Shown here piece by piece: positions 1-33,214 of a DNA stretch of 33,214 nt. How positions within the stretch are numbered: the first letter of the stretch is position 1; every line of letters starts with the position of its first letter. A program made the translations under genes and the position numbers. Origin of the DNA: an uncultured Eubacteriales bacterium (GTDB lineage Bacteria; Bacillota; Clostridia; Lachnospirales; CAG-274). The DNA is taken from the NCBI GenBank assembly GCA_902497185.1, contig CABVEG010000001.1:1-33214 (forward strand), in the 5' to 3' direction. The notes under the pieces were generated by a model. The model had not been told where the DNA came from, searched no databases, and saw nothing but the letters and a program-made list of their open reading frames with translations.

Positions 1-63
1 TTAAAAAGTTTAGTTTTTTTGACAGTCTGCAGCAGGCTTTACATTGGTAAAACCTGCTATTTT

Positions 64-6275: not shown

Positions 6276-8010
6276 TTATTTTTCCTCCCTTTTTAAGCTG
6301 AGAATTATAAATGTCCTGATAAATTTCACAACTTTCCAAAAGTTTTTTATGACTGTCACAGGCAACAATTTTTCCATTGTCAATTATTGCAATTCTGTCA
6401 GCTCCCTTAACGGATGCTATTCTTTGGGCAATAATTATTTTGGTTACATTATCATAGTCACTTCTAAGCGACTTGTAAAGCTTTGCCTCAGTTTTAAGGT
6501 CAAGAGCACTTGTAGTGTCATCAAAAATAATTATTTCAGATTTTTTAATAAGTGCTCTTGCAATAGCTATTCTCTGTTTTTGTCCTCCTGAAAGGCTCAT
6601 ACCTTTTTCAGCAACCATAGTATCAAAGCCCTCACTCTTTGCCTCAATAAATTCCAATGCCTGTGCCTGCTCGGCGGCAGTATAAACCTCATTGTTGTCT
6701 GCATCAGGATTACCCCATAAAATATTTTCCTTAATACTTGATGTAAAAAGTTCACTTTTCTGCAATGCAAAAGCTACCTTACTTCTTAATTCAAACAATT
6801 TATAATCTCGTACATCTATACCGTCAACAAGTACACTGCCTTCTGTAGCATCATAAAATCTTGGAATCAAATTAACAAGGCTTGACTTTCCACTTCCTGT
6901 AGCTCCTAAAATACCTAGAGTTTCTCCCGAATTTACAGTAAGGCTCACATTGTCAAGTACAAGTTCACCATTTCCCTGAGGATATGCAAAGGAAACGTTT
7001 TTAAACTCAATTTTACCCTTAATATTTGTATTTCCATCAAAGCTACCATCATTAATTACAGGCTCTGTGTTAAGTATTTCATTTAATCTGTCCGCAGATG
7101 CCTTACCTCTGGATACTGTTTGGAAAATCATAGCAAGCATCATAACAGAATGATTAATTCTGGATAAATATGTAATGGCAGCCATTATACTTCCCGGAGT
7201 TGTGGCACCTATTTGAGAATCCATAGCTCCTATCTTAATTATAATTACAAGTACAATATTTAAAACAATATTTGCAAGGGGAGTCATATAAGCAAAAATT
7301 TTCAAAACACTTAGCTGAGTATCTACAAGTTCGTTATTGGCTTTGCCAAATCTGTTTTCTTCATACTCCTCTTTAACATAGGCTTTTACAACTCTTGCAC
7401 CGGAAACATTTTCCTGAACAACACTGTTAACCCTATCGAGTTTTTTCTGTAAAACATCAAAAAAAGGTGTAGCCTTGCTTATGAAAAACAAAACTCCCAA
7501 AAGTACAAAGGGCAAAGAACAGCCAAGTACTACACCAAATTTTAAATCCAAAGCTGCTACACAATAAATACCCCCTACAAATAAAAGTATAGTTCTTACA
7601 AAACCTCGCACTACCTGAGTTGCAAAATTTTGTACCTGGGTAACATCATTTGTTATTCTTGTTACAAGAGAGCCTGTTGAAAATTTATCTGTCTGCTCAA
7701 AAGAAAACCTCATAACTCTTTCAAAACAAGCCTTTCTTATTTCATTGCCCCAGTTTTGGCTAAACATATTGGCAAATACTCCTGAAAGCACACCTGAAAT
7801 ACCACCTAATATTACAACTCCTATCATAGCAATTCCCATAGATATTATTAATTTAAGGTCGCCAACACCATTATTGTTAAGTCCCAAAACACCATTATCA
7901 ACAATAACCTTCATCATATTAGGCTGAATTAAATCCATTAAAACTTCACCAAACATAAATAAAGGTGCTATAATCCCGAATATCCAATATTTTTTCAATA
8001 ACTTTATCAT
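6268..8010 (-). CDS. ABC exporter, fused permease/ATPase subunit (heterodimer partner 1)
   Basis: 580 aa. TM domain plus Walker A GATGSGKSS, signature LSGGQKQR, Walker B IIIFDDTTS. 4-nt ATGA overlap with the upstream marR. Confidence 0.9.
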   Translation of the reverse strand: MIKLLKKYWIFGIIAPLFMFGEVLMDLIQPNMMKVIVDNGVLGLNNNGVGDLKLIISMGIAMIGVVILGGISGVLSGVFANMFSQNWGNEIRKACFERVMRFSFEQTDKFSTGSLVTRITNDVTQVQNFATQVVRGFVRTILLFVGGIYCVAALDLKFGVVLGCSLPFVLLGVLFFISKATPFFDVLQKKLDRVNSVVQENVSGARVVKAYVKEEYEENRFGKANNELVDTQLSVLKIFAYMTPLANIVLNIVLVIIIKIGAMDSQIGATTPGSIMAAITYLSRINHSVMMLAMIFQTVSRGKASADRLNEILNTEPVINDGSFDGNTNIKGKIEFKNVSFAYPQGNGELVLDNVSLTVNSGETLGILGATGSGKSSLVNLIPRFYDATEGSVLVDGIDVRDYKLFELRSKVAFALQKSELFTSSIKENILWGNPDADNNEVYTAAEQAQALEFIEAKSEGFDTMVAEKGMSLSGGQKQRIAIARALIKKSEIIIFDDTTSALDLKTEAKLYKSLRSDYDNVTKIIIAQRIASVKGADRIAIIDNGKIVACDSHKKLLESCEIYQDIYNSQLKKGGKINE

Positions 8011-8450
8011 TGTTTTTCCTCCTTTCTGTGATTGAAAAGAGAACTGTCAAATTTACTTTCCCAATCTTTAAAAACCTTGTTAAGTAATGTCTGAAGCTGT
8101 ATCTGTTCTTCACTGCTAAGAGAAGTAAAAAGCACCTTTTCCTGTTCTCTGTTTACTTCCATTTGGCTTTCAAGAAATTTACTGCCCTCATCGGTAAGAA
8201 TAATGTTAATTTTTCGCTTATCTTCATTATCCCTTTTCTTTATAATAAAGCCTTGATTTTCAAGCTTTTTTACAGTTTCACTTACTGAACCTGATTTTAG
8301 TGTAAGTATTTCAAGAAGCTCCTTTTGGGTTATTTGCCCTCTTTCCTTTATTAATTTAAGTATTCTAATCTGACCTCTTTTACCTCCACGACGGTGATAA
8401 AGGAAGTGACCGCATTTTTCCATAATATGTAGTAGTTCCCTGTTTTCCAT
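8007..8450 (-). CDS. MarR-family transcriptional regulator (first gene of the ABC exporter operon)
   Basis: 147 aa. MarR winged-helix core (ILKLIKERGQITQKELLEILTLKSGSVSETVKKLENQGFIIKKRDNEDKRKINIILTDEG). Confidence 0.85.
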   Translation of the reverse strand: MENRELLHIMEKCGHFLYHRRGGKRGQIRILKLIKERGQITQKELLEILTLKSGSVSETVKKLENQGFIIKKRDNEDKRKINIILTDEGSKFLESQMEVNREQEKVLFTSLSSEEQIQLQTLLNKVFKDWESKFDSSLFNHRKEEKQ

Positions 8451-8470
8451 AATTTCCTCCGTAAAAAAGT

Positions 8471-8520
8471 TAGGTACCTTGATATTATAGCATTGCTAAA
8501 TATATTTGTCAAGGTACCTA
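8471..8520 (-). promoter_or_regulatory. consensus sigma-A promoter bracketed by a 12-bp inverted repeat (putative MarR operator)
   Basis: On the minus strand: TTGACA (8507-8512), 17 nt, TATAAT (8484-8489). Flanked by TAGGTACCTTGA (8471-8482) and TCAAGGTACCTA (8509-8520). Confidence 0.6.
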
Positions 8521-8560
8521 GAGAAATATGTTAGGGTTTATATTACTTAAGAAGTAAGAT

Positions 8561-8603
8561 AAATTAATGTTTATTTCACCTTTTGTGAAATAAACATTAA
8601 TTT
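8561..8603. repeat. 43-nt AT-rich hairpin repeat, copy 1
   Basis: 19-bp stem AAATTAATGTTTATTTCAC / GTGAAATAAACATTAATTT. Its reverse complement matches 33073-33115 at 42 of 43 positions. Confidence 0.85.
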
Positions 8604-9110
8604 AGCCTATCTTTGTAGTTACAACGGACGACCACTGGTCGCCCCTACATTTAAGTCAATGAAGCTTGTAGGGGCGTGCATTGCACGTCCGCTGTACTTA
8701 GCTTTAAAGACAAATTGTAATTTAAGTGAGTAAATATAGCTGTGCTAAACAAACGTGAGAACCTTGCCATTATTGAATCGGAAGAATTATCCGACAAGGC
8801 ATAGCCTTGCTTTTGCGTAGCAAAAGTTCTGAATAGGCAAGAACCTTCAGCATTTTCAGCTATGCTGAAAACCAGCCTTCGGCTGTCCGATAAATCTTTC
8901 GGTGCAAACACGCAAATTCAAAAGCTTACCAATTTTGCTTGGTGCAAAAACGAGCCTTTATTAAAGAAAAAAGTAGGCTCACGTTTTTGCACAGCATCGC
9001 AGTCGTTGTCTGTTTATTATAAAATAATAAACAGACAAACTTTGTGCGACCGCAAAATGCTTTTGAATTCTTATCTGCTTTTGACAAGTCAAAAGCAGAT
9101 AAACAATAAT
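8604..9110 (-). other. hairpin-dense non-coding region: candidate large structured ncRNA or nested palindromic-repeat cluster
   Basis: About 500 nt with no credible ORF and locally GC-richer than its surroundings. At least 10 stems, organised as a nested hairpin (8620-8696), a four-way junction (8763-8841) and a three-way junction (8915-9069). The strand call is weak: one A/C mismatch becomes a G-U pair on the minus strand. Confidence 0.45.
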
Positions 9111-9728
9111 TTAACCACCCAAGGTCACATCCTGATTTTGATACCAACTTATAGCATTTTCAATATGTTCTCTCTTAAAATCAGGCCACAAATCCTCCAC
9201 TATATAAAAATCTGCATATACAGACTGCACAGGCAGAAATCCTGACAATCTTCTCATACCACCCCACCTTATAATAAGGTCAATTCTTGAAATATCAGCA
9301 GTATTATAATAATTAACACTTTTATTGGCTTTTAAATCCCATTCCCAACTATAATTAATAAGGAAATTAACTTTAATTCCACCACTTCCAAATCGCTTTC
9401 TTTTGGTTAAATCCCCAAGCTCAATAGGAAACATTTCAGATTCCGTATTTCCTGCAACCAAAATTTCACAATTTTCATTTTTTATCATATTAACCATTTC
9501 GACACAGCATTTTGTAAAGGCTATTCTCTGTCTTGTGGGTCTTTTTGTATTATCAACTGTAAAGCCGTAAATACTAAGCTCCTTTACTCCCAACTGCTGA
9601 CACTGTCTGAAAGCCTCAAGTCCCGGCAGTAATCCGTTTTCATATCCCTTTTCCTTGCCCATAGACTGCCCCTGTGCCCAACGCCTGTTGCCGTCAGGTA
9701 TAATTCCAATATGATTTGGTACTCTCAT
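9111..9728 (-). CDS. divergent short cis-prenyltransferase (UppS-family paralogue)
   Basis: IGIIPDGNRRWA substrate-binding motif, and IRWGGMRRLSGFLPVQSVYADFYIVEDLWPDF matching the UppS C-terminal IRTSGExRLSNFLLWQ...WPDF region. ATG at 9728 has a GAGGTG RBS 6 nt upstream; the ORF track extends to GTG at 9737. Confidence 0.8.
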   Translation of the reverse strand: MRVPNHIGIIPDGNRRWAQGQSMGKEKGYENGLLPGLEAFRQCQQLGVKELSIYGFTVDNTKRPTRQRIAFTKCCVEMVNMIKNENCEILVAGNTESEMFPIELGDLTKRKRFGSGGIKVNFLINYSWEWDLKANKSVNYYNTADISRIDLIIRWGGMRRLSGFLPVQSVYADFYIVEDLWPDFKREHIENAISWYQNQDVTLGG

Positions 9729-9822
9729 TTTTATCACCTCTCATAAATTGTAGCCAATTTATGAGTGTATATACTATTGTGTAAAAATAAATTTTGTGAT
9801 ACTATAAATATGAGGTGAAATT

Positions 9823-10122: not shown

Positions 10123-11028
10123 ATGAAGAAACTGCTTTTGCTTGCAAATTTTCATTCAGGCAAAGGAATAATTAAATTGAATATTGCAGATATGATTGAC
10201 TACTACAACAGCAATGGATTTGAGGTAACTGTGTATTCCTCCCAATATGTAGGACACATTAAAGACATAGTTGAAAAATATGGTAGTTTTTATGACAATA
10301 TTGTATGTTGCGGAGGTGATGGCACTCTTAACGAGGCTGTAAACGGACTTATGTCACTTAATAAAAGACCACTCCTTGGATATATCCCAAGCGGCTCAAC
10401 AAATGACTTTGCCAATAGCATAGGTATATCCACAATAATAGAAGAAAGCTATAAAACGGCTATTAACGGTCATCACTTTTCTATTGACATAGGTAAAATC
10501 AATGATAAATACTTTTCATATGTTGCAGGTTTTGGACTTTTTACCAATATATCCTATGAAACGCCACAGACAATAAAAAATATTTTAGGTTATCAGGCAT
10601 ATCTGCTTACAGCACTTAAAGAAATAACAAATATAAAAACATATCCAATGAAAGTCACATATGATAACGGTATTATAGAGGATGATATAATGATTGGGCT
10701 TGTGTCAAATTCCAACAGCATTGCCGGTATGAAAAAGCTGTTTGAAAATTATGCCGATTTAAGCGACGGGCTTTTTGAAGTCCTCCTTGTAAAAAAACCT
10801 AAAAATACCAGTCTTTTAAAAAACATTGTTAGCTGTGTTGTTGAAAAAAATTTCGACAACGATATGTTTTACAGCTTTAAAACAAGCAAAATTAAATTTG
10901 AAAGTACTGAATTTATAAAATGGACAGTTGATGGCGAATATGGCGGTGATTTCAACTCAACGGAGATCAATGTTATAAATAACTCTATTGATATTCTCAT
11001 TGAAAAAAATATTATAAAAAAAGAATAG
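10123..11028 (+). CDS. diacylglycerol/lipid kinase family protein (YegS/BmrU/DagK-like)
   Basis: GGDGTLNE nucleotide-binding motif, GYIPSGSTNDFA, typical length. ATG at 10123 has an AGGTG RBS 6 nt upstream; the ORF track starts at GTG 10114. Confidence 0.85.
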   Translation: MKKLLLLANFHSGKGIIKLNIADMIDYYNSNGFEVTVYSSQYVGHIKDIVEKYGSFYDNIVCCGGDGTLNEAVNGLMSLNKRPLLGYIPSGSTNDFANSIGISTIIEESYKTAINGHHFSIDIGKINDKYFSYVAGFGLFTNISYETPQTIKNILGYQAYLLTALKEITNIKTYPMKVTYDNGIIEDDIMIGLVSNSNSIAGMKKLFENYADLSDGLFEVLLVKKPKNTSLLKNIVSCVVEKNFDNDMFYSFKTSKIKFESTEFIKWTVDGEYGGDFNSTEINVINNSIDILIEKNIIKKE

Positions 11029-11048
11029 TCAAAGCTATTCTTTTTTTA
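11016..11048. terminator. bidirectional rho-independent terminator
   Basis: Stem AAGAATAG (11021-11028) / CTATTCTT (11035-11042), with an A-run before and a T-run after. Lies between convergent genes. Confidence 0.6.
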
Positions 11049-11053
11049 TATCA

Positions 11054-19260: not shown

Positions 19261-19262
19261 AA

Positions 19263-19336
19263 CGACTCGGAAGGGGCTCGAACCCTCGACCTCTGGCGTG
19301 ACAGGCCAGCGCTCTAACCAGCTGAGCTACCGAGCC
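19263..19336 (-). tRNA. tRNA-Asp (anticodon GTC)
   Basis: Hand-folded cloverleaf: acceptor GGCTCGG/CCGAGTC, D-arm GCTC..GAGC, anticodon stem CTGGC/GCCAG with loop CTGTCAC, T-arm GAGGG-TTCGAGC-CCCTT, discriminator G. The 3' CCA is not encoded. Confidence 0.93.
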
Positions 19337-19395
19337 ATATATAAAATATGTTGTAACGGATACTTAATTCCTGTTAAGTACCAGCGACAAATAAT

Positions 19396-31374: not shown

Positions 31375-31473
31375 TTGTGTTTCAAAAAATTACAAAAAAT
31401 TTTTTTTACAAATGTCACACTTTGTCACTTTTACAGTGATATGCTTTTTTTGAGCAGAAAAGAGGTGAAAAAA

Positions 31474-31821
31474 ATGTTTGATTTTCAGTTTCCTTATTCT
31501 CAAATGCCAAAAATAAATGCCATTATAAAAAAAGGCAGCAAAAGCATTATGAGAAATGAGGATTTTATACTTAAAGAAATCAGTGAATTTAAAAGCTCAA
31601 AAATAAGATTTGATATGCTTAGAGGTTATTACTACTTTGAGGGCAAACAGGACATACTGAAAAGAAAAAGGCTTTGTATTGGCGAAAACGGTGATGTTAA
31701 TGAAGTAAACAACATTCCAAACAACAGAATTGTAGATAATCAATACAAAAAACTTGTAACTCAAAAGGTAAACTACATACTGGTAATTGCTGCAATAGAA
31801 TCAAAAAGGAGTGATTTTTAA
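31474..31821 (+). pseudogene. 5' fragment of an SPP1/Gp6-type phage portal gene
   Basis: ATG 31474 with GAGGTG RBS. Residues LRGYYYFEGKQDILKRKR...NNIPNNRIVDNQYKKLVTQKVNYIL match the conserved portal N-terminus (YYxGxxxIlxR...pNNkl.n.y...v..kv.Y). Only about 115 aa are present, against about 450-500 aa for intact portals; similarity stops 11 codons before the stop. Confidence 0.6.
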
Positions 31822-33069
31822 ATGAACAATATCATTAAGCATAAAATAACTGATGTTATAGGCGGCGGTTATGATGATTTTTGGAAATTTAAAGGCAGAT
31901 ACAGAGTTTGCAAAGGTTCAAGAGCCAGTAAAAAAAGCAAAACAACTGCTCTAAACTTTATTGTAAGGCTTATAGCTTATCCCGAGGCAAATATGCTTGT
32001 AGTAAGAAAGGTTTACAATACATTAAAGGACAGCTGTTACACAGAGCTTTGCTGGGCAATTAAAAGACTTAATCTTGAAAATTATTTTTTATGTAAAACA
32101 AGTCCTCTTGAAATTACATATACGGTGACAGGACAAAAAATATATTTCAGAGGACTTGACGACCCTATTAAAATTACATCAATTACTGTTGATACAGGCT
32201 GTCTTTGTTGGATGTGGCTTGAAGAAGCCTATGAAATAGATGATGAAAACGATTTTAATATGCTTGATGAAAGTATAAGGGGACGTGTTCCTGACGGACT
32301 TTTTAAACAAATTACAATTACACTTAATCCTTGGAATGAAAGACATTGGATCAAGAAAAGATTTTTTGATGTTAAAGACGATGATATACTTGCCAAAACT
32401 ACCAATTATCTTTGCAATGAATGGCTTGACAGCTCCGATAAAAAGGTTTTTGAAACAATGAAAATAACCAATCCCAGACGTTATCAGGTTGCAGGACTTG
32501 GAAACTGGGGTATTACAGAAGGACTTGTATATGAAAATTGGAGAGAATCTGAATTTGATATAAATGAAATTATAAGAAAATACAATATTAAAGCGGTTTT
32601 TGGTCTTGACTTTGGATACACCAATGATGAAACAGCTCTTTTCTGTGGTCTTTGTGACACACAAAATAAAAAGCTTTATGTATTTGATGAAATATATAAA
32701 AAGAAAATGAGCAATGAGGATATTTATAATGAAATAGTTAAAAAGGGCTATAAAAAAGAAAGAATCAGAGCTGACTGCTCTGAACCTAAAAGTATAGACA
32801 GGCTCAGAACTCTTGGTTTAAGCAATATAAGAGGCTGTAGAAAGGGTAAGGACAGTATAAATAACGGCATTGACTTTATACAGGGATATGAAATAATAAT
32901 TCTGCCTAAATGCAAGGGGTTTCTTATGGAAATAAGTAATTATAACTGGGAAATTGACAGCAGCGGAAAAAGAACCAATATACCCTGCGATAAATTTAAT
33001 CACCTTATGGATGCTATGAGATATGGTATGGAGGAGATAATTAAAGGAGATAGTTTTAGCTTTGAATAA
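31822..33069 (+). CDS. phage terminase large subunit, PBSX/XtmB-type
   Basis: 415 aa. N-terminal ATPase (CKGSRASKKSKTTA Walker A-like, WMWLEEA Walker B-like) and a C-terminal RNase-H-like nuclease (GLDFGYTNDETA ... DAMRY). Appears intact. Confidence 0.85.
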   Translation: MNNIIKHKITDVIGGGYDDFWKFKGRYRVCKGSRASKKSKTTALNFIVRLIAYPEANMLVVRKVYNTLKDSCYTELCWAIKRLNLENYFLCKTSPLEITYTVTGQKIYFRGLDDPIKITSITVDTGCLCWMWLEEAYEIDDENDFNMLDESIRGRVPDGLFKQITITLNPWNERHWIKKRFFDVKDDDILAKTTNYLCNEWLDSSDKKVFETMKITNPRRYQVAGLGNWGITEGLVYENWRESEFDINEIIRKYNIKAVFGLDFGYTNDETALFCGLCDTQNKKLYVFDEIYKKKMSNEDIYNEIVKKGYKKERIRADCSEPKSIDRLRTLGLSNIRGCRKGKDSINNGIDFIQGYEIIILPKCKGFLMEISNYNWEIDSSGKRTNIPCDKFNHLMDAMRYGMEEIIKGDSFSFE

Positions 33070-33072
33070 AGT

Positions 33073-33115
33073 AAATTAATGTTTATTTCACCAAAGGTGA
33101 AATAAACATTAATTT
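33073..33115. repeat. 43-nt AT-rich hairpin repeat, copy 2 (inverted relative to copy 1)
   Basis: 20-bp stem AAATTAATGTTTATTTCACC / GGTGAAATAAACATTAATTT. Matches the reverse complement of 8561-8603 at 42 of 43 positions. Starts 3 nt after the terminase stop. Confidence 0.85.
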
Positions 33116-33127
33116 TAATTCAAAGTT

Positions 33128-33205
33128 ATTTTGCCATGCTTGTGTAGCAAACAGTTGCGGCTTTTTCTCTAAAATAAAGGCAACTGTTTGCTACAATGGC
33201 AAAAT
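33128..33205. repeat. 78-nt nested palindrome (26 bp of pairing)
   Basis: Outer stem ATTTTGCCAT (33128-33137) / ATGGCAAAAT (33196-33205). Inner perfect 16-bp stem TGTAGCAAACAGTTGC (33143-33158) / GCAACTGTTTGCTACA (33180-33195). 21-nt loop. Confidence 0.8.
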
Positions 33206-33214
33206 TGGTAAAAC

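What the first reader, a model, noticed from the sequence alone, without database searches (positions are those of the whole stretch)
8555..9110. Ornate, gene-free multi-junction region of about 550 nt: candidate large structured ncRNA or nested palindromic elements
The sequence between the uppS-like stop (9111) and the marR promoter (8484-8512) is much longer than other intergenic regions here and is packed with stems.

Stems, 5' to 3' on the plus strand:
- A 19-bp hairpin at 8561-8603.
- A nested hairpin with outer stem 8620-8630/8686-8696 and inner 10-bp GC-rich stem CGCCCCTACA/TGTAGGGGCG (8640-8649/8667-8676). Two 9-nt mini-palindromes (ACCACTGGT, TGCATTGCA) face each other between the stems.
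- A four-way junction closed by CTTGCC/GGCAAG (8763-8768/8836-8841), enclosing hairpins 8778-8794, 8795-8809 and 8810-8826.
- Hairpins at 8846-8871 and 8873-8885.
- A three-way junction closed by an 11-bp stem AATTCAAAAGC/GCTTTTGAATT (8915-8925/9059-9069) plus ATTTTGC/GCAAAAT (8932-8938/9052-9058). It encloses a 14-bp bulged hairpin (8943-8991) and a perfect 15-bp hairpin (9006-9038).
- A 14-bp hairpin at 9071-9102.

The only mismatch in the 8620/8696 stem is A/C on plus, which becomes G-U on minus; this is weak support for a minus-strand transcript, co-directional with the flanking genes. GC-rich structured islands in AT-rich genomes are how large ornate RNAs such as OLE, GOLLD and ROOL were found, and OLE loci are associated with isoprenoid genes. 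I cannot match this region to any of those families from memory. The alternative is a pile-up of REP/MITE-like palindromes.
Basis: partly seen in the sequence, partly recalled or inferred. Interest (0 to 1): 0.72.

Follow-up and report, generated by a model that had tools for sequence, protein, structure and literature searches.

The report
Pile-up of palindromic repeats behind uppS
The densely folded 550-base gap is not a conserved giant RNA but a fast-changing heap of hairpin-forming repeat modules that have been inserted, duplicated and inverted at the transcription terminator behind one gene, which is a known kind of bacterial "junk" although these repeat families are undescribed.

Summary
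It folds far better than shuffles (z -14.3 on the minus strand, -12.2 on the plus strand) and contains the two most stable 300-nt windows of the contig.

The large-ncRNA reading fails:
- There is no Rfam match.
- Helices are almost purely Watson-Crick, so both strands fold.
- Relatives whose flanking genes are 83-93% identical in DNA have quite different uppS-marR spacers: 340 nt, about 440 nt plus an IS, and 660 nt here. Other species have 44-47 nt.
- Window 8715-9098, which holds both multi-way junctions, has no counterpart in them.

Almost every part is instead a repeat module:
- The 20-bp palindrome recurs at 33073-33115.
- The three-way-junction element recurs at 33117-33214.
- The four-way junction and the hairpins next to it are inverted paralogues.
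- The nested hairpin is an inverted doublet of a terminator-like unit, and it lies inverted relative to two relatives.

Related genomes also carry a hairpin-rich non-coding insertion element. It is present or absent between strains and lands just after intrinsic terminators, duplicating the whole 29-31-nt terminator.

What moves the modules is unknown. Interest is modest.

The parts
9099..9113 (-). 'A-arm' motif TAAATTATTGTTTAT, which overlaps the uppS stop codon (TAA at 9113-9111). It is the outer left arm of the whole island.
   Evidence: The same motif follows the uppS stop in L066, L002, L068 and L070. It is 14/15 complementary to 8560-8574 (I6). It is a 16/18 direct repeat of 8590-8607 (D1).
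9071..9102 (.). P5, a perfect 15-bp palindrome and the first hairpin after the uppS stop.
   Evidence: The orthologous stretch in L070 (UppS 90% identical) keeps the right arm TCAAAAGCAAAT, but its left arm is imperfect.
8915..9069 (-). It is 155 nt with terminal inverted repeats AATTCAAAAGC(TTACCA)ATTTTGC / GCAAAATGCTTTTGAATT. It encloses hairpins 8943-8991 and 9006-9038.
   Evidence: I10. A paralogue at 33117-33214 has the same ends and the same loop (CTTTTTtCTyTAAaATAAAGGC) but different, still paired, stems. Both copies start 1 nt after the first hairpin downstream of a stop codon.
8846..8914 (+). Module D, three small hairpins (loops TAT, TTC, TAAATCTT) ending in TGCAAAC.
   Evidence: It is the best hit in the whole window of model R3, which was built only from the optional module of the insertion element in L064 and L009 (8847-8909+, E 0.22). 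It aligns with module C in inverted orientation.
8763..8841 (-). It has the same three-hairpin layout as D (loops TAC, TAT, TAATTCT), closed by CTTGCC/GGCAAG.
   Evidence: It is the second-best R3 hit of the window (8755-8832-, E 0.44). Its first hairpin, CTTTTGC-TAC-GCAAAAG, nearly equals CTTTGC-TAC-GCAAAG of L009.
8697..8762 (.). A largely unpaired linker. 8697-8714 is the 'tail' that travels with the P2 unit. The rest holds a weak promoter-like site.
   Evidence: 8667-8714 is 98% identical to L066 but in the opposite orientation relative to the genes. One assembly breaks at 8718-8757. The promoter-like site at 8761..8733 matches 9 of 12 positions.
8620..8696 (.). P2, an inverted doublet of the unit GTAGGGGCG-[9-nt mini-palindrome]-CGTCC. 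The heads face each other and are 17 nt apart.
   Evidence: (I1). A single unit lies downstream of uppS in L066, L002 and L077/L081/L086, with compensatory changes (GTGC/GCAC against GAGC/GCTC). In L002 an IS4-like IS with a 9-bp target duplication sits inside a unit. The orientation is inverted relative to L002 and L066.
8560..8604 (.). Palindrome A, two A-arm motifs in inverted orientation (20 bp, 5-nt loop). It is terminator-like on both strands and lies just upstream of the marR promoter.
   Evidence: A second copy (43/44 nt) is at 33073-33115, right after the stop of a terminase gene. A relative in human-gut contig L054, also right after a stop codon, has an a/t swap in both arms.
8471..8520 (-). 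Context, not part of the pile-up: the marR promoter (TTGACA-17-TATAAT, 8512..8484) bracketed by a perfect 12-nt inverted repeat, probably the MarR operator.
   Evidence: (I7). It is conserved in L002 and L066 at 88-91% over 82-86 nt.
33073..33214 (+). A second hairpin island at the contig end. It holds a copy of palindrome A and then a P4-type element cut off by the end of the contig.
   Evidence: z -10.8. Two other assemblies end 81-89 nt after the terminase stop.
1..29 (+). A probable 3' end of a copy of the insertion element seen in relatives (TTTAGTTTTTTTGACAGTCTG). It is followed by a terminator hairpin, and the contig starts here.
   Evidence: It matches the last 14 nt of the L066 copy at 13/14 by eye. 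The independent scaffold_4026 is exactly 8757 nt long and ends at window position 8757 (100% identical over its last 307 nt), so it is inferred to start at window position 1 too. BLAST did not report the short gapped match, so this is suggestive only.

Best explanation
The region is a nest of hairpin-forming repeat modules. They accumulated at the DNA level in and behind the intrinsic terminator of the uppS-like gene, at a point where gene order breaks between species.

Shown:
- The ancestral state is the stop codon, then the motif TAAATTAaTGTTTA, then one terminator hairpin.
- In this lineage that short spacer has grown to 660 nt.
- The modules are palindrome A, a P4-type element with terminal inverted repeats, an inverted pair of a three-hairpin module (C and D), and an inverted doublet of a terminator-like unit (P2).
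- Several of these have further copies in the same contig or in related genomes.

Inferred:
- The 'closing stems' of the multi-way junctions are terminal inverted repeats, or the split arms of hairpins that received later insertions. They are not evolved RNA junctions.
- New modules prefer existing hairpins as landing sites, as the related insertion element demonstrably does at terminators. Once started, the pile therefore attracts more.
- The mobilising enzyme is not in the window and is unknown.
- If transcribed as the uppS 3' UTR, the hairpins would act only generically, as terminators, exonuclease blocks and insulation of the marR-ABC promoter.
For: 1. No conservation where an RNA gene would need it.
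- Flanking genes are 90-93% (L002) and 83-89% (L066) identical in DNA. Only about 200 and about 143 of the 660 spacer bases align, and nothing aligns in 8715-9098.
- uppS-marR spacer lengths are 660, 340, and about 440 plus an IS. Other species have 44-47 nt with a single terminator.

2. Modules are repeats.
- A recurs at 33073-33115.
- P4 recurs at 33117-33214.
- C and D are inverted paralogues, related to a module inside the insertion element of L064 and L009.
- P2 is an inverted doublet.

3. DNA rearrangement.
- P2 plus its tail is inverted relative to L002 and L066.
- An IS with a 9-bp duplication lies inside a P2 unit in L002.
- A 15-nt inverted repeat and a 16/18 direct repeat bracket the island.

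4. A related hairpin-rich element is mobile in the genus.
- It is present or absent among strains with identical UppS (L056 and L064 against L057-L065).
- It inserts in the T-tract after terminators and duplicates the whole 29-31-nt hairpin. The empty site for the L066 copy is window 11013-11050.
- The spacers that carry it are as over-folded as this one (z -8 to -13).

5. Helices are 187/190 Watson-Crick on the plus strand, so both strands fold.

6. Assemblies break in these regions.

7. There is no Rfam family and no coding signal: no Pfam hit and no homologues of the ORFs.
Against: - Copy numbers that I could see are low: two copies each of A and P4 in 33 kb. The P2 unit was seen only at this locus in 700 kb of fetched DNA.
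- No transposase or recombinase is in the window, and no clean target-site duplication flanks the individual modules.
- Hairpins keep pairing through compensatory changes (A in L054; P4 against its paralogue; the P2 units; C against D). Structure therefore matters to something, either the element's own mobility as single-stranded DNA or an RNA role.
- The minus-strand fold is 12.6 kcal/mol more stable and has 8 more G-U pairs.
- The homology of C and D to the L064/L009 module rests on E-values of 0.2-0.4 plus position.
- Only one sample of this species is on record, so strain-level presence or absence of this island could not be tested.
Confidence: 0.75

Rival explanations
1. The palindromes were made on the spot rather than brought in. 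Template switching or snap-back synthesis during replication would turn imperfect inverted repeats into perfect ones and create inverted duplications of whatever lay there. No transposition is needed.
For: - Four units are inverted duplications of local sequence. A is two copies of the ancestral post-stop motif. P2 is two copies of the terminator-like unit. C and D are an inverted pair whose axis (about 8843) lies near the centre of the outer inverted repeat, about 8836.
- P5 is perfect here but imperfect in the orthologous stretch of L070.
- The stems are unusually perfect.
Against: - A and the P4-type element also occur 24 kb away, after an unrelated gene.
- The C/D-type module occurs inside insertion elements of two other species.
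- In relatives, clear insertion polymorphisms with duplicated terminators exist.
- This mechanism probably contributes but does not explain the dispersal. The direction of the P5 change cannot be inferred from two sequences.
Confidence: 0.13
2. It is a lineage-specific large structured non-coding RNA, or a set of RNA domains, transcribed from the minus strand. It would be either its own gene or the uppS 3' UTR, with a function that depends on the multi-junction fold.
For: - The fold is extreme (z -14.3), and the minus strand is slightly favoured (11 against 3 G-U pairs, 12.6 kcal/mol).
- Hairpins are kept through compensatory changes between paralogues.
Against: - No Rfam match.
- The junction-bearing 385 nt is absent from relatives that are 7-17% diverged in the flanking genes.
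- A shared module is inverted relative to the genes.
- The plus strand folds almost as well.
- No promoter-like site lies inside the gap near its uppS end. The scan's only minus-strand site there sits inside the uppS gene and matches 9 of 12 positions.
- Modules recur in other contexts and orientations.
Confidence: 0.05
3. It is a host-selected array of terminators and RNA-stabilising hairpins that insulates the uppS transcript from the marR-ABC operon. The structure would be maintained because it is useful, not because it is mobile.
For: - Palindrome A scores as a terminator on both strands and sits directly upstream of the marR promoter.
- The P2 unit lies 24 nt after the uppS stop in L077, followed by a T-rich run, and looks like the genuine terminator there.
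- From established knowledge rather than tested here, REP/BIME clusters in E. coli stabilise upstream mRNA.
Against: - One hairpin suffices in sister species, which have 44-47-nt spacers.
- Most hairpins here lack a T-tract. The scan finds only 3 terminator-like sites against 1.1 expected.
- The content turns over completely between close relatives.
Confidence: 0.05
4. It is an assembly artefact, such as a chimeric or falsely palindromic join in a metagenome-assembled contig.
For: - The window is a whole MAG contig.
- Another assembly splits it at 8718-8757.
Against: - The two ENA contigs overlap by 40 nt and are 100% identical to the window over 8540-8757 and 8718-9120.
- Relatives from other samples carry recognisable pieces of the same modules.
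Confidence: 0.02

Closest known systems
REP/BIME clusters and REPIN doublets of Enterobacteria and Pseudomonas
   Same: - Short GC-rich imperfect palindromes sit in intergenic DNA behind genes, often as inverted pairs that make a longer hairpin, and pile up in mosaics.
- The P2 unit even begins with GTAG, the head conserved in many REPs (this is from my knowledge of the REP/RAYT literature, not a test).
- An IS sits inside a unit in L002. IS1397 does this in E. coli palindromic units (again from my own knowledge).
   Different: - No high copy number could be shown. The unit was seen only at this locus in 700 kb.
- No RAYT/Y1 transposase is in the window.
- The host is a Clostridia gut bacterium.
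- Most modules here are AT-rich, longer and multi-hairpin.
Modular Gram-positive intergenic repeats such as pneumococcal BOX, RUP and SPRITE (PMC3049150; I only listed it and did not read it) and Neisseria Correia elements
   Same: - They are non-coding and hairpin-forming, built from modules in variable number and order.
- They lie behind genes and have terminal inverted repeats.
- They cause assembly breaks.
- Their mobiliser is unknown or acts in trans.
   Different: - There is no sequence similarity.
- The elements here nest into multi-way folds.
- The related element in the genus duplicates a whole terminator rather than a dinucleotide.
IS1272/TnSha1 (IS1182 family) of staphylococci
   Same: That element integrates into the stems of terminator hairpins without primary-sequence specificity. 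It does so in both orientations, repeatedly at the same terminator, and sometimes deletes part of the hairpin (PMC4923244). The insertion element in L056 likewise replaces the distal arm of the uppS terminator.
   Different: - IS1272 carries a transposase and makes no target duplication.
- The element in L064 and L066 is 243-299 nt, non-coding, and flanked by a 29-31-nt duplication of the whole terminator.
- No IS1182-family gene was found.
Large ornate bacterial RNAs (OLE, ROOL, GOLLD, raiA, HEARO)
   Same: The size (about 0.5 kb), the many helices and multi-way junctions, and the position next to an isoprenoid-pathway gene (as for OLE) are alike.
   Different: - No covariance-model match.
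- No conservation across close relatives.
- Near-perfect palindromes fold on both strands.
- The modules are repeated and invertible.

Membership tests
OLE / ROOL / GOLLD / raiA / HEARO and all other Rfam 15 families | A match to the family covariance model at or near its gathering score. | tested here: not met
   At gathering level only tRNA-Asp is found in the window. At E<=10 the best match is MIR5269, 29 bits against a cut-off of 60, on the single hairpin 8554-8610.
Conserved structured ncRNA (generic) | Homologues in related genomes with the architecture kept and covariation in long-range (junction-closing) helices. | tested here: not met
   L002 and L066 share the flanking genes at 83-93% identity but nothing of 8715-9098. 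No homologue turned up in the plasmid or phage collections, in four viral-contig pattern scans for modules of this region, or via translated spurious ORFs.
MITE-like non-autonomous element | Terminal inverted repeats. | tested here: met
   The island is bracketed by 8560-8574 / 9099-9113 (14/15). The P4 element has ends of 11 + 7 nt at 8915-8938 / 9052-9069.
MITE-like non-autonomous element | Several copies in one genome in different contexts. | tested here: inconclusive
   There are two copies each of A and the P4-type element in 33 kb. Contig ends fall in them. The rest of the genome was not available.
MITE-like non-autonomous element | Target-site duplication and empty sites in other strains. 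| tested here: inconclusive
   For this island there is only a 16/18 direct repeat (9099-9116 against 8590-8607). No second strain is available. For the related element in L064 and L066, both features are met.
REP / REPIN (RAYT-associated) | A short imperfect palindrome with a conserved GTAG head, occurring as inverted doublets. | tested here: met
   P2 is CGGACG-ACCACTGGT-CGCCCCTAC(A), then 17 nt, then (T)GTAGGGGCG-TGCATTGCA-CGTCCG.
REP / REPIN (RAYT-associated) | Tens to hundreds of dispersed copies and a RAYT gene in the genome. | not testable with these tools
   Only 33 kb of this genome is held. The unit was found only downstream of uppS in 700 kb of loci. No Y1 transposase is among the window's proteins.
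Intrinsic (rho-independent) terminator | A stable hairpin followed by a T-run. | tested here: met
   This is met for palindrome A on both strands, and for one 6-bp hairpin at 8795-8809. The other stems lack a T-run.
Hairpin-targeting IS of the IS1182/IS1272 type | A transposase gene of that family with matching ends. | tested here: not met
   No transposase is in the window. The only IS seen, in L002, is DDE_Tnp_1 (IS4-like) with unrelated ends.

The most novel reading that the evidence does not exclude
This island and the related insertion element in the genus may be members of an undescribed class of structure-dependent, non-autonomous mobile elements of gut Lachnospirales.

The class would have three traits:
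- It recognises intrinsic-terminator hairpins rather than a sequence.
- It duplicates the entire hairpin (29-31 nt) on insertion.
- It maintains its own internal hairpins by compensatory change around invariant single-stranded motifs (TGTCCTCGG, CTGCGGATTnnAGTCTGCGACGC).

This would point to a hairpin-recognising enzyme or an RNA or single-stranded-DNA intermediate that is not yet known. It would also make such elements a source of new terminators and of 'ornate' pseudo-RNAs.
Probability: 0.3. Interest if true: 0.6.

Novelty: new member of a known kind. Interest (0 to 1): 0.33.

Why it matters
For RNA discovery this is a caution. An extreme folding z-score and multi-way junctions in a gene-free gap can arise from nested palindromic repeats. 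One close relative is enough to tell the difference.

For mobile-element biology it points to repeat families in uncultured gut Clostridia (Candidatus Gallispira and relatives) that are absent from Rfam and from the plasmid and phage collections. These families home to transcription terminators, break metagenome assemblies behind particular genes, and remodel the DNA between operons within less than about 10% sequence divergence.

If the whole-terminator duplication reflects a new insertion mechanism, it would be worth an experiment.

Tried and rejected
- Rfam at gathering and at E<=10 on the region, and on the related elements in L064, L009 and L044. Only chance hits.
- blastn (distant mode) of the region and of the related element against the phage and plasmid collections. 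No match.
- Five viral-contig pattern scans (A, P2, the C hairpin, the P4 end, and the element's invariant motif). Only the last gave a hit, one prophage-like contig, L069.
- The one metagenome scan, with the palindrome-A core. It gave four contigs, of which only L054 is a real relative. L052, L053 and L055 share just the core.
- Searching the translated spurious ORFs of the region (86 aa and 127 aa) against 5.8 billion proteins, to catch homologous DNA in other assemblies. Only the window's own ORF came back.
- nhmmer with a profile of the related element, and a covariance model of its two 5' hairpins (R2), against the window. No copy was found in the region. I therefore dropped the idea that 8873-8914 is a decayed 5' end of that element.
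- Model R1 was built with a mis-registered structure and discarded.
- A tRNA-like reading of the four-way junction. ARAGORN finds only tRNA-Asp at 19262-19337.
- Coding or toxin-antitoxin readings. No Pfam hit, no homologues, and no ribosome-binding site before the 86-aa ORF.
- An invertible-promoter reading of P2. Only 17 nt lie between the arms.
- The idea that the whole island is one large degenerate palindrome. Only the C/D pair and the outer arms are symmetric; P2 and P4 do not match.
- A literature check that the IS1182 family makes long duplications. I could confirm only hairpin targeting by IS1272, not the duplication length.
Full report
**The observation**

I read window 8300-9300.
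- RNAfold places them all in the minimum-free-energy structure of both strands. The minus strand gives -212.1 kcal/mol against -129.5 +/- 5.8 for dinucleotide shuffles (z -14.3). The plus strand gives -199.5 (z -12.2).
- Across the contig, the two most stable 300-nt windows start at 8851 and 8551 (-109 and -101 against a mean of -62, sd 13).
- Three of the seven perfect palindromes of at least 11 bp in 33 kb lie here.
- The flanks are as described. A Prenyltransf/UppS-like gene occupies 9111-9737 (-). A MarR gene occupies 8007-8450 (-) and is followed by two ABC exporters.
- A perfect extended sigma-70 promoter lies at 8512..8484 (-). It is bracketed by a perfect 12-nt inverted repeat.
- The 'GC-rich island' is marginal: 0.37-0.39 against 0.30-0.37.

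**No known RNA and no coding signal**

- cmscan of the window at gathering level finds only tRNA-Asp.
- At E<=10 the region gives only microRNA and snoRNA models that latch onto single hairpins, far below their cut-offs.
- ARAGORN finds nothing in the region.
- The ORFs in the gap have no Pfam hit and no homologues among 5.8 billion proteins.
- One of them, 8862-9245(+), is annotated as a protein in the NCBI record but forms a singleton cluster. It is most likely a false gene call.

**A DNA-like signature**

Of 190 pairs in the plus-strand fold, 187 are Watson-Crick. The minus strand has 11 G-U pairs of 200. Most stems are therefore true palindromes that fold on either strand, which an old RNA gene rarely shows.

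**Comparison with relatives**

A scan of one genome per species with the UppS-like protein gave 45 loci. The source is a Candidatus Gallispira-like gut Clostridium. Exact-protein look-ups added more. Two relatives keep the order dagK-DUF1292-uppS-[spacer]-marR-ABC.

| Locus | Flanking-gene DNA identity | uppS-marR spacer |
|---|---|---|
| Window | - | 660 nt |
| L002 | 90-93% | 1830 nt, about 440 nt without an IS |
| L066 | 83-89% | 340 nt |

- Only three patches of the window's spacer align. They are the marR promoter region (8441-8528), 15-20 nt right after the uppS stop, and 8639-8714. This last patch is in the opposite orientation relative to the genes in both relatives.
- Window 8715-9098, which contains both multi-way junctions, has no counterpart.
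- In other species of the genus, marR is not adjacent. uppS is followed by 44-47 nt holding one terminator hairpin.
- A conserved 0.5-kb RNA is therefore excluded at this locus.

**What the parts are**

Reading from uppS towards marR:

1. **9113-9099, the 'A-arm' motif.** TAAATTATTGTTTAT overlaps the stop codon. The same motif follows the stop in L066, L002, L068 and L070. In L002 its reverse complement lies next to the marR promoter, so there the whole spacer sits between the two arms.

2. **9102-9071, P5.** This is a perfect 15-bp palindrome. The orthologous stretch of L070 keeps the right arm, but its left arm is imperfect.

3. **9069-8915, the 'three-way junction'.** It is a 155-nt unit with terminal inverted repeats.
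   - A second copy starts at 33117, with the same ends and the same apical loop sequence but different, still paired, stems.
   - Both copies begin 1 nt after the first hairpin downstream of a stop codon.

4. **8914-8846 (module D) and 8841-8763 (module C, the 'four-way junction').** They are inverted paralogues of one three-hairpin module (alignment A5).
   - A covariance model built only from a 51-nt optional module in related elements of L064 and L009 has its two best hits of the whole window exactly on D and C (E 0.22 and 0.44).
   - Each hit is weak. Taken together, and given their position, they are telling.

5. **8714-8620, the 'nested hairpin' plus its tail.** The hairpin is an inverted doublet of the unit GTAGGGGCG-[9-nt mini-palindrome]-CGTCC.
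   - Single units lie behind uppS in L066, L002 and L077/L081/L086, with compensatory changes.
   - In L077 the unit sits 24 nt after the stop, followed by a T-rich run, and looks like the real terminator.
   - In L002 an IS4-like IS (DDE_Tnp_1; inverted repeats CAATGTCATTAACTTAAGC; 9-bp duplication GGACAATGC) sits inside a unit.

6. **8604-8560, palindrome A.** It is two A-arm motifs head to head and scores as a terminator on both strands.
   - A 43/44-nt copy lies at 33073-33115, directly after the stop of a terminase gene.
   - A relative in a human-gut contig, again directly after a stop codon, has the same position changed in both arms.

The island as a whole is bracketed by a 14/15 inverted repeat (8560-8574 / 9099-9113) and by a 16/18 direct repeat (8590-8607 / 9099-9116).

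**An active relative of these modules**

The sister species has an identical UppS in 127 recorded contigs.
- Most strains have uppS followed by a 47-nt spacer.
- Strain L056 has a roughly 250-nt hairpin-rich insertion in the 3' arm of that terminator.
- Strain L064 has the same element, 79% identical and in the other orientation, at another terminator. The 31-nt terminator is present on both sides of it.
- In L066 a copy lies after dagK, between two identical 29-nt copies of the terminator. The empty site is window 11013-11050.
- I found ten copies or fragments in Gallispira loci and one prophage-like contig.
- In six of seven copies with an intact 5' end, that end abuts the 3' side of a terminator hairpin.
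- The element has imperfect ends (CAGGCTGTCGA / TTGACAATCTG) and hairpins with compensatory changes. It also has invariant unpaired motifs TGTCCTCGG and CTGCGGATTnnAGTCTGCGACGC (alignment A1).
- It has no Rfam, plasmid or phage match.
- Spacers that carry it are as over-folded as the window's (z -8 to -13).
- L002, L066 and L068 carry a copy lacking the first hairpin, directly after the uppS A-arm motif. The uppS terminator is therefore a repeated landing site.
- The window's region holds no intact copy. However, 8623-8637 plus P2 matches the 3' end plus P2 of the L002 copy, inverted.
- Window 1-29 looks like the 3' end of a copy followed by a terminator. This match was made by eye and is suggestive only.

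**Assembly behaviour**

- The window is a complete contig. Its 3' end lies inside the second P4-type element.
- Two other assemblies stop 81-89 nt after the terminase stop.
- One assembly splits the region at 8718-8757. That is the boundary between the inverted orthologous part and the lineage-specific part.
- In a sister species, most contigs carrying uppS end 100-300 nt after its stop, and strains differ by indels there.
- This is what multi-copy or polymorphic repeats do to short-read assemblies.

**Mechanism**

Shown:
- The modules are repeated, inverted and replaced at the DNA level.
- A related element inserts after terminators and duplicates them.

Inferred:
- Hairpin-seeking insertion into earlier hairpins produces nesting. 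The split arms or terminal repeats then appear as 'junction-closing' stems.
- Local inverted duplication or template switching probably contributes. A, P2 and C/D are inverted pairs, and P5 is perfected relative to L070.

The closest described behaviour is IS1272/TnSha1, which integrates into terminator hairpins in both orientations (PMC4923244). It makes deletions rather than duplications, and it carries a transposase.

No mobilising gene is in the window. The compensatory changes show that hairpins matter to something. My preferred reading is the element's own propagation as single-stranded DNA or RNA. A host RNA role cannot be excluded without transcript data.

**Verdict**

The large-ncRNA reading is not supported, and the nested palindromic-repeat reading is. 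This is a new member of a known kind. The interest of the finding itself is modest. The terminator-duplicating element in relatives is the part most worth following up.

Noticed in passing
L064:1410-1708(+), L056:4656-4905(-), L066:6228-6470(+), L009:3100-3406(-), L069:726-949(-); partial copies at L002:5641-5845, L066:4119-4275(-), and in L013/L014/L015: A 224-307-nt non-coding, hairpin-rich insertion element found in Candidatus Gallispira relatives and one prophage-like contig. It is present or absent between strains. It inserts just after intrinsic terminators and duplicates the whole 29-31-nt terminator. It has invariant unpaired motifs and compensatory changes in its hairpins. It has no Rfam, plasmid or phage match.
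   Followed up: partly
window 33073-33214: A second hairpin island at the contig end. It holds a copy of the 20-bp palindrome and then a truncated paralogue of the three-way-junction element. It lies directly after a lone terminase large-subunit gene (31822-33069) preceded by a portal fragment (31375-31821), which looks like a prophage remnant beside chromate-transporter genes.
   Followed up: partly
window 1-63: The contig starts with a sequence resembling the 3' end of the insertion element (TTTAGTTTTTTTGACAGTCTG), followed by a terminator hairpin. An independent scaffold, exactly 8757 nt long and ending at window position 8757, is inferred to start at the same base. Both contig ends therefore appear to lie in repeats.
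   Followed up: partly
L002:5845-7240: An IS4-like insertion sequence (355-aa DDE_Tnp_1 transposase, a second ORF after a stop, 19-nt inverted repeats, 9-bp duplication GGACAATGC). It is inserted into the apical part of the GTAG-headed palindromic unit, much as IS1397 sits in E. coli REP loops.
   Followed up: partly
window 8471-8520: The marR promoter is a perfect TTGACA-17-TATAAT with a TG extension. It is bracketed by a perfect 12-nt inverted repeat TAGGTACCTTGA/TCAAGGTACCTA, probably the MarR autoregulatory operator. It is conserved in L002 and L066.
   Followed up: partly
window 8862-9245 (+): A 127-aa ORF that runs from the hairpin region into the antisense strand of uppS. It is on record as a predicted protein of the NCBI contig but is a singleton with no homologue. 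It is most likely a false gene call.
   Followed up: yes
L077:3619-4085, L081:3619-3894, L083:3619-3820, L079:3619-3662: In a sister species with identical UppS, the downstream spacer is 44 nt in one strain and 467 nt in others. The long form holds two GC-rich GYAGGGGCG units and, by eye, three direct copies of a roughly 30-nt motif (TTAAATTCC..TTTA.CTCAC.AACAA). It also has strain-specific indels. Most contigs end 100-300 nt after the stop.
   Followed up: partly
L064:1013-1375, L069:952-2259, window 31822-33069: Three of the hairpin elements or islands lie directly downstream of isolated phage packaging genes (terminase small subunit, portal, terminase large subunit). This may be chance, since the elements land after any terminator, or it may be a link to prophage remnants.
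   Followed up: no
L044:9724-9900: A structured leader-like spacer in a more distant relative contains CTTTTGCATAGCAAAAGTTCTGAA, which is 23/24 identical to window 8810-8833. It has no Rfam match, and its meaning is unknown.
   Followed up: partly
L053:4960-5230, L055:1-220: Two contigs of one unrelated metagenome share the palindrome core GTTTATTTCAC..GTGAAATAAAC. They show their own tandem series of different short palindromes, so the hairpin pile-up phenomenon occurs elsewhere too. I did not pursue this.
   Followed up: no
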